From: Zootoca vivipara
Taxonomy: Eukaryota
Direction: 5' to 3'
Length of the DNA: 64,000 bases
NCBI RefSeq assembly: GCF_963506605.1
Contig: NC_083277.1
Coordinates: 117,428,001 to 117,492,000, forward strand
Shown piece by piece: positions 58,795-64,000 of the stretch. Position numbers: made by a program. How positions within the stretch are numbered: position 1 is the first letter of the stretch; each line of letters begins with the position of its first letter.

Positions 58795-61700
58795 TAGTGC
58801 CTTGGATGACTAATACACTTTCAGAAAGGATCCTGAAACTCGTCCAGTCAGCCAGTTTAACAAAGCAGGTAAAACCATTTGTGAAGGGTAGAACTTGCAA
58901 ATAATTGAGGGCTATTGTGGCAGAGTGGCCAAGAGTCTAGGACTGCAGTCTTGCACATATTATAAGACATGTCTTATATTTATTTTTTCCTCAAAAAAAC
59001 ACACTATGGCTTATTTTCAAGGGATGTCTTATTTTTTTCCTCCTCCTTCTGCCGTGGCCGGCATTGCTGCTACGCCTATCACTATGTCTTATTTTCGGGG
59101 TATGGCTTATATTCCTTGAATGCTTAAAAATCCTGCTATGGCTTATTTTATGGGTATGTCTTAAAATATGAGAAACAGGGTAAGTCCTATTGAACTCAGT
59201 AGGGCTTCGTTTGAGTAGACATGCATAGAAATGCATGGTAAAGGGGTCATGTGTAAGTTGCACTGTAAGAAGCTTGATTCTAGTCTTGCATCTGCCATGA
59301 GCTTTCTAGGTAGCCTTAGAAAAGCCAATATCTCTAAACTTCAGGGCCCCCCCCCCAAAAAAAATCTGCAGTATGGGATAATAATGCTGGCTGCCCTTAC
59401 AATGTTGCTGTAAGGGTTAATGAGACAATGTGTGGAAAATACTTGGAACTTGCCATATAAACGTTATCATGACTTTGAGAAATTGAGATAAATACTTTGA
59501 AATTTTCCTCTTGTGCTCTTACCACGTGTAGTCTCCTCGAAGTTGGATGAGTTGCATGGTCTCTCTCTGGAACATGGCAGTAGCATGCTTGATGTGAATC
59601 ACAAGCTGGATAAACACTGCTATCCCACCACATTTTGAAGGTTTTTAGACTACAAAATGCTAAAACTACTAACAACAGCGTCTGATTTTTGTGTGTATGC
59701 TAACGTTGGGTGATTACTAAATGAAACATTAGAGAAATGAGGATCTTAACCTACGTCAAATTCTAGATACTTGCTTAATGACTTGGGAAGGTTTTCTTCT
59801 TTTTGGCCTTTTGTGCTGGAGTAAACTCTGTGTGTTTTAAAGGATCTGTATATGGTTTGTTTCCCAATCATGCTTCCACGTTAACAAATGGTTTGATGTG
59901 TAAGAATTCTTCAGGAAGAAGGAGGCAGGTGGCTTAGTAAGAACCAAAGGATACAACCCCTTCATATTTTTAAACCTGTGTGAGACAGTTGGGAATTGGG
60001 ATGTTAATGATCATGCATCACTACTTTGTGACACATGTTTCTTTTTGCAAATTGGTGGTGACCACTGTTTAAGGTCGGAGAGGTGGTGACTCTGGTGTGA
60101 CTGAAATGGGGACCTGAAACCTACTAGATGTCAAGTGGATAACTTTCTAATCCACTCACTAACACTGCCTATCTTAAGCACAGAGCAGGGAATCGACGTT
60201 TTGTGACTGCAAGCCAAAAGATTACAACATAATTTGGCATTTACCAAGCATCCTGAACTTGGCAGTAACAGCTGATAGATGTGTTGACTGTGAAAGGGTG
60301 GAGCAGAATTTTCAGCTGATACTGCATTTAAAAATCTAATTGTATTCTGAAGTGTGTGTGTGTGTTTGTGCGTACCTGCATCCTTCTTATTTGGGACATG
60401 CTAACTCTAAACCTTCCCTGTGTATTGTGTCTCCAGTTATCTGTCTTGAAGGTATCATGGATGCTGGTTAGCAGAGAACCAGGTCTCCTTGAATGCTACA
60501 TTTCTGCCTTGCCGCTTAGGGAACACTGCATGACTTTGTGACTGGGTCTCTCCTATACACACACCTACGCATGGGGATGCTGTACACTGCATGACTGGTA
60601 AATGCAATGACTTCTGTCCAAGGGGTGTGAGAGTTTCTCTTAGACAGGGAGGAAACACACAAGTTCGGTTGGATAAACAAATGAAGCTGTATAGAATGGA
60701 GCAGTTTCTCTGAAGCAGACAGAAACTGTCTGCCTGTCCATATTGTGGATGTCGTGGTGTTGAATGGCCTACCAAATCTTAGCAAAGTCTATACTGGTTT
60801 TCAGCTTTGCTTCTGGCCCATTAGAAAGTTATGCCAAGGCACCTGTGTTGCAGAGAAGAGATTGCTGTAAGTGCCAGTGACACATTAGACAGAATTCTAT
60901 GAGGTTATTGGGGCACAGCAAATAAATTTTGCTTTGCTCCAGTCAAGCTTTGCTGCTGGTTCTTGGATGTAAGAAGTGGGAAAGAAGACACACAGCAGTT
61001 TTGCCAGAGCCACCCACACTGAATGTAGAAGCAAGATAGGAGGAGACAGAAGAACTGATACAACTAGTTCCAAATCCAGTGCATCATCCATTCTTCTTCA
61101 TATTTACCACAGTCTGGTGCATGAATATGCCCTTCTGTCCTCAAAGGCACTGGCTAATATTGTGATACAAATGGGAAAAATTTTTAACTGCTTCCTCTGC
61201 TAGTGGTAGCTACATTTTTAAAAAAACTGTACTGACTTCCATCCGTTTTATCCCATTATGAAGTGGTTGCATGCATGACCACTGTGACGCGGTAAACTTG
61301 GCCTAGATTGGCTTTTGATACATCAGCGCTAACATTTAGAAGCTGATGTCAGCTGAGTTACGACTGTTAGTGTGATGACACCAAATCCTCATGATAGCTA
61401 GGAAACAACTTAAATTGTCAGTTTCCTCTCCAGAGTAGATTATCCCTATAATGCTTCATACATTAAGGTTTTTATTAGTCCGGGTGCCATTTGTCTCTGG
61501 GCTGCTGAGGATGCTACTGATTGCTAATCACCTCACGAGGCATGTGCAGACTGTTGGGTTTCCTGAGTGGTATCTGAACAGTTGACACTATTTCAGTAAC
61601 TCTACCCCCAGTTCCTGGGGTCCCTATGGAAGTGATGCGGACAGCTGAGGAGTCCAAACCAGTTGCCACCAAGAATCCTGAGGTGGCAGGCAAGGGTTCT

Positions 61701-64000
61701 CAGGCTGGGACTGCTCTAGAGTCATCAGGTAGGTTTCAAGTTAAAACAGCAAGATGGGGTTGAAATTACTTCATTTTAATTTTTAAAATGAATTTTTTGA
61801 TTAAAAAAAACTCTAGAATGAATCAGGGCTCCAGAACTACCAGCTTTGTTTAAGCTGAGATCTTGTTTCCTGGTGGTCAAAGAAATAAGTAAATGTACAT
61901 ACTTGAAACATACATTTCTGCTGATCAAATATACTACTGCAAGAGTTAACAGCTGTTAAGTATGGTATGCAGGTCTTCCTAAGAAGGCATTTCCATGGTT
62001 TGCTTGCGATGTCCCTGGGTGTACTGCTTGTGGTATATAATTTGCAGTAGACCTAGGGAAAATGTCACATCTCAGTGATTCCAAGTTTCAGATGATGATG
62101 ATGATTTATTACTGCTTTTTTGCGAGACGGGGGATGGTGAGCCACCATAAAGGTTAACGCCATCCTTTAGAATGACTACTAGTTTGAATGCCTGCACTTT
62201 GATGGTGCTGCTCTTTTAGGCTAGATCGTGTTTTAGCTAAAATGTCATAGTTTAATTTTAAGAAATTGTTTAGCTTTCTTAGCATGAATCTTATAACTTT
62301 CTGGTTATATGTAGTTCTTTGCCCCTTCCTTGTTTAACTTTTTTTTGGGGGGGGGGGTGAGAGGGAATCCTCATTCCATTATCTTGCTCTCCCATTGTAT
62401 ACCTATTTTCCCAGTCACTTCCCAAGAACTGATGCACAGCAGTGGGTAGCTGTAGACAACTGACCACTTAAAGTTCAGTGACCAACACAAATTATATAGT
62501 AATTCCTTTGCCTTCTTTTCTTCATCTGCTTAGTAGAAACATCACCCAGAATCTACAATTAAGGATTGTTTAGTAACTCATTCGTGAGAGACAGTTATGA
62601 TTATTGAAGCCAGCTCTCTCATTGAACAGAGGCTTCTAGCATTCTTACTGGAAATAAGGAAAATCTTGAAGTAGTGAATTGGTGTTAGTGTAGTCTGAGC
62701 ACTTGCTCAATCTGGCATTTATATCACCTTCCTGCTAAATCTATGCCTTGAATTCTGGTTGTCTCAGTCCTGCTATGAAGCCCATGCATTAGAGTGAATT
62801 CTCACACTAGTAAAAGCCTTTTTTGTACTCATCTGCTAGTCTTAGGTGATGAGTCCAAAAAGAGACCCTTGATCCCCTCAGAATCTTTTATCATGTTGTA
62901 ATATAGCCATTTTGTTTTTTACTGCCCTTATGAAGGTCAATCACAGTGTTAAGGAAGTAGCTCCTAAATTCCTGTTTCTGGAATGCTAAGATCCTTCTGC
63001 TTAAGTTGCATGTGATAGACTTCTTTCTCATGCAGCCATACATTAATATAACATGTGCTGGGCTCCTCTTCCCTGCATGATCTCACTGAGCAGTGTGCTT
63101 CTGGCTTCATTTAAAGCAGTTTATGCTCATCAGATTTGCAGACATTCCTAGTGCAGCTACCTACTCTCAGGCCACACATATACCGGTAGTTAAGATTAGT
63201 TAATCCACCATTTAATGCTTTGATGAAACATCACTGAGTGACTCATTCTTTAAAAAGTTTGGGTGGATGCTAGCAGTGTAAGTTGTAGCTTGCATGTCTC
63301 ATTTAGGTTTGAATAATGCCAGGCCTGAAGTTGAAGGCATCTTACGTAGTTCCGGGATAGACAGCTCCCAGTAGACTTAATTTGTCATTTTGACTAAGCC
63401 AAGAGAATAGAACCTTCTAGATGGTTCTAGCCCCAAGCTTATTGGTTTGTCATTAATAACCTATTGCTCTTGCTCATTTAGCTCCTGCCACTCCAAACCC
63501 TTTTGCTGGTGCTTCTGAAGCACCTGCAGCCTGTTTTTCTCAGCTTCCTGTTCAAGCACCAGGTATTTGCTGTTAGTCCCTATGTATGTCTCCTTAACAA
63601 TATTTTGCTGTGCTGTGTTGATGCAGTTACATTAACCATAGTATTTAGCAACAAAAAAAAGACTTGGTTTAAGGAGACTCCTGAGTTCTATTCTTCGCTC
63701 TTCAGCTGACATAGATCATATACAAGTTACTGTGTAGAATACAAACCTCTAGGTAGGAAATGTTTTATGGACTGATCTGCCATCTAGATTACCAGAGAGA
63801 GGGTTTGATTTTTTTTCTGTGGCTGCTTGCTGTTGACAGGCACACAGAATTGGTATGAAAAGTTATGTGGTACCTTGCATTGCTGTCCCAATATCTGTTT
63901 CAAAGAATACTGGCATTTTGTGGTTCCTGGGATGCCAGTGGCTACACCTTGAAATTACATGTGACTTGTGTGAAGATCTTGCTTTGATCGCCCCTGCTTA

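What the first reader, a model, noticed from the sequence alone, without database searches (positions are those of the whole stretch)
61597..63562. Modular, multi-cassette skNAC-like architecture instead of one giant exon
Seen: two more stop-free phase 1-1 exon candidates (61597-61728, 44 codons; 63482-63562, 27 codons, Pro/Ala-rich) with good splice sites, in an intron stretch almost free of the transposons that fill the rest of the window. Established: mammalian muscle skNAC arises by including a very large Pro-rich exon after this same NACA exon. Inference: this lizard has a series of small frame-preserving cassettes that could combine into many N-terminal isoforms. A giant exon may still follow beyond the window.
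Basis: partly seen in the sequence, partly recalled or inferred. Interest (0 to 1): 0.7.

Follow-up and report, generated by a model that had tools for sequence, protein, structure and literature searches.

The report
Two candidate small NACA muscle exons
Two short proline/alanine-rich open segments in the intron after the first coding exon of the NACA gene look more like real alternative exons than like chance, but nothing here shows that they replace the giant muscle-specific exon known from mammals.

Summary
Both segments exist as described: 61597-61728 (132 nt) and 63482-63562 (81 nt). Each is bounded by AG and GT and is open only in the frame that continues phase 1. They lie 2.8 and 4.7 kb downstream of the NACA first coding exon (58721-58792). 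That exon has 23 codons plus one G and is 23/23 identical to NACA residues 1-23 in the PDB.

Two splice-bounded open segments in 5.2 kb is no more than chance gives. Their content is unusual. Among 126 exon-like loci in the window, they rank 1 and 2 for disorder-type residues and for G1-minus-G2 coding periodicity, and 1 and 13 for proline.

Candidate 1's acceptor is weak. Candidate 2's donor scores the same as a genuine PRIM1 exon donor here.

I judge them probable (about 0.55) small frame-preserving alternative exons of a skNAC-type isoform. The "multi-cassette instead of one giant exon" reading is not supported:
- there are only two candidates, unrelated to each other;
- I found no others;
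- the window ends 438 nt after the second.

Homology and expression could not be tested, because the protein databases were closed and there are no transcript data.

The parts
58721..58792 (+). NACA first coding exon. ATG at 58723, then 23 codons plus one G, so it leaves in phase 1.
   Evidence: Read directly. [quoted passage not shown] Recalled-matrix scores: acceptor 10.9, donor 8.4.
61597..61728 (+). Candidate cassette exon 1. It is 132 nt, phase 1-1, and encodes 43 whole codons plus two split junction codons. An in-frame alternative acceptor would start the exon at 61612 (117 nt).
   Evidence: Open only at offset 2. Donor CAG|GTAGGT scores 10.2, acceptor 3.4, the alternative acceptor 4.8. 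PASTGEKQ fraction 0.74 (rank 2 of 126 loci); lowest FWYCHILM fraction (rank 1); Pro rank 13. G1-G2 is 0.33, rank 1 of 126. GC is 0.56 against 0.30 downstream. No Pfam, PDB or Atlas match.
63482..63562 (+). Candidate cassette exon 2. It is 81 nt, phase 1-1, and encodes 26 whole codons plus two split junction codons. P+A is 50%.
   Evidence: Open only at offset 2. Acceptor scores 5.7, with no AG in the 40 nt before it and a branch-like TTAAT 26 nt upstream. Donor CAG|GTATTT scores 5.3, the same as the donor of the PRIM1 exon at 31750. Rank 1 of 126 for Pro, P+A, PAST and PASTGEKQ. G1-G2 is 0.31, rank 2. GC is 0.53 against 0.39 and 0.34 in the flanks. No Pfam or PDB match.

Best explanation
The two segments are probably genuine small, alternatively included coding exons of NACA. 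They lie in the intron that in mammals holds the skNAC-specific exon.

Shown from the sequence:
- Each enters and leaves in phase 1, the phase in which the 23-codon first coding exon ends. Either, both or neither can be included without changing the downstream frame.
- The junction codons are sense codons: G+TA gives Val, G+CT gives Ala, and G+TT gives Val with the alternative acceptor.

Inferred:
- When included, they insert 44 and 27 residues of Pro/Ala/Ser/Thr/Gly/Glu/Lys-rich, presumably disordered sequence directly after residue 23. This is the same position and the same kind of sequence as the skNAC insert.
- Candidate 1's weak acceptor and candidate 2's moderate donor fit regulated rather than constitutive inclusion.
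- They most likely act as leader exons of a skNAC-type muscle isoform whose main exon lies beyond the window. They do not replace it.
For: Position and phase are established.

I enumerated all symmetric AG..GT open segments in the window: both strands, three phases, acceptor >=3.0, donor >=5.0, 75-400 nt. This gave 205 segments collapsing to 126 loci. Only 3 of these loci are on the + strand, downstream of 58792 and in phase 1-1. Two of the 3 rank as follows:
- PASTGEKQ fraction: ranks 1 and 2.
- G1-G2 coding periodicity: ranks 1 and 2 (values 0.33 and 0.31; null mean 0.034, sd 0.099; NACA exon 0.39).
- Proline, the metric fixed by the literature's 'proline-rich exon': ranks 1 and 13.
- P+A: ranks 1 and 11.
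My arithmetic: the chance that the top two of 126 both fall among 3 given loci is 3.8e-4.

Of 194 null segments outside this stretch, 0 reach candidate 1's PASTGEKQ value, 11 reach candidate 1's exon-minus-flank GC contrast and 7 reach candidate 2's.

I ran third-order Markov simulations of the 5,208-nt stretch. A locus with PASTGEKQ >=0.74 arose in 0 of 1000 runs (intron-trained) and 1 of 1000 (window-trained).

Candidate 2's donor scores the same as that of a bona fide PRIM1 exon in this window.

No intra-window repeat covers either segment.
Against: - No transcript evidence and no cross-species comparison was possible.
- The number of loci is not unusual. About 1.0 segment as good as candidate 2 is expected per 5.2 kb per phase, and about 2.0 at the joint floor. 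In simulations P(>=2 loci) is 0.10 to 0.24.
- Without the splice-site condition, such content is common. 1181 of 42845 stop-free 26-codon windows (2.8%) reach PASTGEKQ >=0.73, and 637 (1.5%) reach G1-G2 >=0.30.
- The PASTGEKQ and G1-G2 metrics are correlated, and I chose them after seeing the peptides.
- RNY ranks are only 18 and 17 of 126.
- Candidate 1's acceptor is at the 83rd percentile of all AG. It has AGs 15 and 29 nt upstream, and its only branch-like site is 12 nt from the exon start.
- The splice matrices are recalled approximations.
- The open frames are short, 61 and 38 codons.
- The GC-rich patch at candidate 1 extends about 120 nt upstream of the acceptor, outside the frame.
Confidence: 0.55

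Rival explanations
1. The segments are chance pseudo-exons: intronic open stretches that happen to be flanked by AG and GT in a compatible phase and are never spliced into NACA mRNA.
For: - The expected number of splice-bounded open segments of this quality in 5.2 kb is about 1 to 2 per phase. In simulations P(>=2 loci) is 0.10 to 0.24.
- The frames are short.
- Candidate 1's acceptor is weak.
- Pro/Ala-rich and G1-nonG2 patches are individually common in this window, at 2.8% and 1.5% of stop-free windows.
- There is no match in Pfam, the PDB or the Atlas.
- Passages of papers on mouse describe a single inserted exon and no small ones.
Against: - Both segments top the 126-locus ranking on composition and on coding periodicity.
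- 0 to 1 of 1000 simulated introns yield even one such locus.
- Both show exon-like GC contrast.
- They sit where skNAC-specific sequence is expected.
Confidence: 0.3
2. In this animal the skNAC-specific region is built from many small phase 1-1 cassettes that combine into many isoforms, in place of one giant exon.
For: The two candidates are symmetric, so they can combine freely. Candidate 2 has 27 codons, a module-like size.
Against: - Only two candidates occur in 5.2 kb.
- They share no similarity.
- There is no tandem or repeated module structure.
- Papers on mouse, and one preprint's general description, speak of a single large proline-rich exon (passages).
- Nothing downstream of 64000 can be seen.
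Confidence: 0.1
3. The segments are relics: open fragments of a decayed large exon, or fragments derived from a transposon, without present coding use.
For: They are isolated short open frames with stops immediately outside the proposed splice sites.
Against: - The stretch is GC-poor (0.40-0.42).
- Between the two segments there are no other Pro-rich patches on the + strand in any frame, as a decayed 6-kb Pro-rich exon would leave.
- No intra-window repeat covers them.
- The region has no transposon protein domain among the ORFs tested.
Confidence: 0.05

Closest known systems
Mammalian skNAC exon 3 of Naca/NACA (muscle-specific, proline-rich insert)
   Same: It is inserted directly after the same 23-residue first coding exon. 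It must preserve frame in phase 1. It is proline-rich. I would expect regulated inclusion here too, but that is inferred; the Rbm24/Rbm20 dependence is reported for mouse and rat only (passages).
   Different: The mammalian insert is one exon of about 6 kb giving a 2,187-residue protein. Here there are two separate exons of 132 and 81 nt, 1.75 kb apart. Neither has a PXLXP motif. Sequence homology was not testable.
Zebrafish skNAC (Li, Randall and Du 2009, FASEB J)
   Same: It is a non-mammalian muscle isoform of naca, required for myofibril organisation (citing passages).
   Different: The paper itself is not held. I could not read its exon structure, so no comparison of architecture was made.
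Titin PEVK-type cassette exons (recalled, not taken from any call)
   Same: They are small symmetric exons encoding disordered Pro-rich sequence that can be combined by alternative splicing. Rbm20 is named as a titin splicing regulator that also affects skNAC (passage).
   Different: The P+E+V+K fraction here is only 0.44 and 0.31. There is no array of similar modules.

Membership tests
skNAC-specific coding insert of NACA | Lies in the intron directly after the 23-codon first coding exon shared with alphaNAC | tested here: met
   The exon 58721-58792 is 23/23 identical to NACA residues 1-23. The candidates lie 2,804 and 4,689 nt downstream on the same strand. The shared 23 residues are stated.
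skNAC-specific coding insert of NACA | Frame-preserving: enters and leaves in phase 1 | tested here: met
   Both lengths are multiples of 3, and both are open only at offset 2. The upstream exon leaves one G.
skNAC-specific coding insert of NACA | Proline-rich composition | tested here: met
   Pro is 0.14 and 0.23, ranks 13 and 1 of 126 exon-like loci. P+A ranks are 11 and 1.
skNAC-specific coding insert of NACA | One very large exon (about 6 kb) | tested here: not met
   The segments are 132 and 81 nt. The enclosing open frames are 61 and 38 codons. No long frame runs off the window end.
skNAC-specific coding insert of NACA | Sequence homology to known skNAC proteins | not testable with these tools
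PDB, Pfam and Atlas gave nothing, and they do not cover skNAC inserts.
skNAC-specific coding insert of NACA | Inclusion restricted to skeletal and cardiac muscle | not testable with these tools
   No expression data are available.
skNAC-specific coding insert of NACA | PXLXP motif that binds the SMYD1 MYND domain | tested here: not met
   Neither peptide contains P.L.P. In mouse the motif lies near residue 1952, far into the insert, so its absence from leader exons says little.
PEVK-type modular cassette array (recalled definition) | Many tandem small exons encoding similar modules | tested here: not met
   There are only two candidates. They have no mutual similarity at E<=100. The stretch has no repeats.
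PEVK-type modular cassette array (recalled definition) | Residues dominated by P, E, V and K | tested here: not met
   The P+E+V+K fraction is 0.44 and 0.31.

The most novel reading that the evidence does not exclude
In this lineage the skNAC-specific N-terminal extension is partly or wholly broken up into small symmetric cassette exons. Muscle could then tune the length of the disordered linker after residue 23 by combinatorial splicing, as titin does with its PEVK exons. The two segments seen here would be the first members of a longer series continuing beyond the window.
Probability: 0.1. Interest if true: 0.5.

Novelty: new variant of a known kind. Interest (0 to 1): 0.3.

Why it matters
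skNAC is needed for sarcomere assembly and heart integrity in mouse and zebrafish, and in the papers I could read it is described as a one-exon switch.

If small leader exons exist in a squamate, the insert's exon structure is not fixed across vertebrates. The region just after residue 23 could then be varied independently of the main insert. That would be a modest point for NACA biology and for gene annotation. It would not change how the system is understood.

If the segments are never spliced, they are ordinary intronic open frames.

Tried and rejected
- Pfam on both peptides and on two minus-strand ORFs at 60458-60788: 0 families.
- PDB sequence search on each peptide separately at E<=10: 0 hits.
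- ESM Atlas with candidate 1: no usable hit. Candidate 2 is below the tool's 30-residue minimum and was not sent.
- Rfam, whole window, gathering thresholds: 0 matches.
- Other cassette candidates. 59022-59099 was rejected because it lies in intra-window repeats (58948-59031 and 59076-59177 match 2849-2932 and 4153-4254). 62092-62136 (45 nt, built on a GAT repeat) was rejected. The remaining relaxed-threshold segments have weak sites and ordinary composition.
- A giant exon starting inside the window: no open frame longer than 75 codons overlaps 63560-64000.
- Literature:
  - skNAC+exon gave 49 papers; I saw the listing and read passages of the papers.
  - skNAC+zebrafish+myofibril gave 53 papers.
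  - skNAC+lizard gave 1 paper, unrelated by its title and abstract.
  - skNAC+chicken gave 19 papers. Passages of two were read and neither describes exon architecture.
  - A 9-residue string from the NACA exon gave 0 papers.
  - A four-term search on NACA, 'muscle-specific form', exon and repeat gave nothing useful.
  - Yotov and St-Arnaud 1996, Li et al. 2009 and Park et al. 2010 are not held.
- I considered Rbm24/Rbm20 motif counting in the flanks and dropped it. The motifs are short, and I found no motif definition in the passages read.
- The joined spliced model was not built or searched. Each exon was handled on its own.
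Full report
**What is there.** The window carries NACA on the + strand. Its first coding exon is 58721-58792. The ATG is at 58723, followed by 23 codons and one extra G, so the exon ends in phase 1. The 23 residues are identical to residues 1-23 of the NACA chains in the PDB, E 5e-8. Passages of two papers state that mouse skNAC arises from insertion of one exon of about 6 kb (exon 3). The product has 2,187 residues and shares its 23 amino-terminal residues with alphaNAC. 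The 'established' part of the finding therefore holds.

**The observation.** Both segments are exactly as described.
- 61597-61728 is 132 nt, flanked by ...tatttcag| and |gtaggt.
- 63482-63562 is 81 nt, flanked by ...tcatttag| and |gtattt.
- Each is open only at offset 2, which is phase 1 in and phase 1 out.
- The junction codons would be sense codons: the spare G plus TA gives Val, and plus CT gives Ala.
- An in-frame alternative acceptor would start the first exon at 61612.
- The enclosing stop-to-stop frames are short, 61 and 38 codons.

I did not build or search a joined spliced model. Each exon was handled on its own.

**Splice sites.** I scored sites with a crude weight matrix whose frequencies I recalled, so the scores are only relative.

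| Site | Acceptor | Donor |
|---|---|---|
| NACA exon | 10.9 | 8.4 |
| Candidate 1 | 3.4 (83rd percentile of all AG) | 10.2 (99.7th of all GT) |
| Candidate 2 | 5.7 (92nd) | 5.3 (94th) |

- A genuine PRIM1 exon in this window, 31644-31750, matches DNA primase small subunit around residues 86-121 at E 1.4e-15. It scores 9.6 and 5.3, and its donor is the same CAG|GTATTT as candidate 2's.
- Candidate 2 has a clean 40-nt AG-free zone and a branch-like TTAAT 26 nt upstream.
- Candidate 1 has AGs 15 and 29 nt upstream, and its only branch-like site is 12 nt from 61597. That site would be 27 nt from the alternative start at 61612.
- 'Good splice sites' is thus only partly true.

**Is it more than chance? 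The count is not.**
- Window-wide, on both strands and in all three phases, 74 phase-specific open segments are as good as candidate 2. That gives about 1.0 expected per 5.2 kb per phase.
- Five segments, including candidate 1 itself, are as good as candidate 1, giving about 0.05-0.07 expected.
- At the joint floor there are 150, giving about 2.0 expected.
- Third-order Markov simulations of the 5,208-nt stretch give 0.55 to 0.92 loci on average, with P(>=2) of 0.10 to 0.24.

**The content is.**
- Of 205 exon-like segments collapsing to 126 loci, only 3 lie on the + strand downstream of 58792 in phase 1-1. One of these, 59022-59099, sits in an intra-window repeat.
- The other two rank as follows (candidate 2 first, then candidate 1):
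  - PASTGEKQ fraction: 1 and 2.
  - Pro: 1 and 13.
  - P+A: 1 and 11.
  - P+A+S+T: 1 and 6.
  - Low FWYCHILM fraction: 7 and 1.
- For G1-minus-G2 coding periodicity, candidate 1 ranks 1 and candidate 2 ranks 2. Values are 0.33 and 0.31; the null mean is 0.034 with sd 0.099; the NACA exon scores 0.39.
- RNY ranks are only 18 and 17.
- By my arithmetic, the top two of 126 both falling among 3 given loci has probability 3.8e-4.
- 0 of 194 null segments reach candidate 1's PASTGEKQ value. 11 and 7 of 194 reach the two GC contrasts.
- 0 and 1 of 1000 simulated introns give even one such locus.

**Against this.**
- These metrics are correlated, and I chose them after seeing the peptides.
- Without the splice-site condition such patches are common. 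2.8% of stop-free 26-codon windows reach PASTGEKQ >=0.73, and 1.5% reach G1-G2 >=0.30. There are 100 of the latter patches in the window, many of them in real genes and transposons.

**Surroundings.**
- No intra-window repeat covers 60001-64000, against 14% of 1-58792. But 5 of 32 two-kb bins also read 0.00, and single-copy elements are invisible to this test.
- The stretch contains only a (GT)9.5 run, a (GAT)5 run and a 10-nt duplication.
- Rfam finds nothing in the window.
- No other credible phase-1 segment exists between 58793 and 64000.
- No long frame runs off the end of the window.
- The two peptides are unrelated to each other.
- Neither peptide matches Pfam, the PDB or, for candidate 1, the Atlas.
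- Neither has a PXLXP motif, and the P+E+V+K fraction is 0.44 and 0.31.

**Reading.**
- Most likely (about 0.55): these are genuine small alternative coding exons. When included, they add 44 and 27 disordered Pro/Ala-rich residues right after residue 23. They probably serve as leader exons of a skNAC-type isoform whose main exon lies beyond the window. Position, phase and content are shown. Inclusion, tissue specificity and the downstream exon are inferred.
- Chance pseudo-exons remain a serious rival (about 0.3).
- The strong reading, many cassettes instead of a giant exon, has no support beyond these two segments (about 0.1).
- Relics of a decayed exon or of a transposon are unlikely (about 0.05).

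**What stayed unchecked.**
- Any expression evidence.
- Everything downstream of 64000.
- A repeat-library screen.
- The primary skNAC papers of 1996, 2009 and 2010, which are not held.
- Supplementary datasets, such as those of the chicken Iso-seq study seen, which were closed.
- In print, the searches turned up no description of NACA exon architecture in reptiles or birds.

Noticed in passing
window 31644-31750 (+): A PRIM1 (DNA primase small subunit) exon. It matches PDB chains around residues 86-121 at E 1.4e-15, so PRIM1 lies upstream of NACA on the same strand. I used it as a positive control for splice scores (acceptor 9.6, donor 5.3).
   Followed up: partly
window 4270-4821 (-), 7992-8534 (+), 20547-20987 (-): Short-chain dehydrogenase first exons. 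The first two are an inverted pair, 142/157 identical at protein level. The third matches Pfam adh_short. This suggests a small SDR/retinol-dehydrogenase-like gene cluster with a recent inverted duplication.
   Followed up: partly
window 1446-2201 (+) and 41690-42229 (-): Transposon-type ORFs: a reverse transcriptase (RVT_1, E 1.2e-14) and a GIY-YIG domain ORF (E 1.1e-5). From recall, the latter is the kind of nuclease that Penelope-like elements carry.
   Followed up: no
window about 58400-58540, and other 2-kb bins with repeat depth 8-9: A SINE-like family is present at up to 9 copies in the window. One copy lies in the NACA intron just upstream of the first coding exon.
   Followed up: no
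window 56900-57100 (+): A GC-rich block (GC 0.55 for 56001-58000) ends in a strong donor ACA|GTAAGT after 57095 (score 6.6) and is preceded by a pyrimidine-rich run. This is probably the NACA promoter and non-coding first exon. Its start was not determined.
   Followed up: no
window 61477-61576 (+): The GC-rich patch at candidate 1 extends about 120 nt upstream of its acceptor (GC 0.53 against 0.30 downstream). This lies outside the candidate's reading frame, which is closed by a stop just before 61578. Unexplained.
   Followed up: partly
window 51361-51530: A run of 170 N.
   Followed up: no
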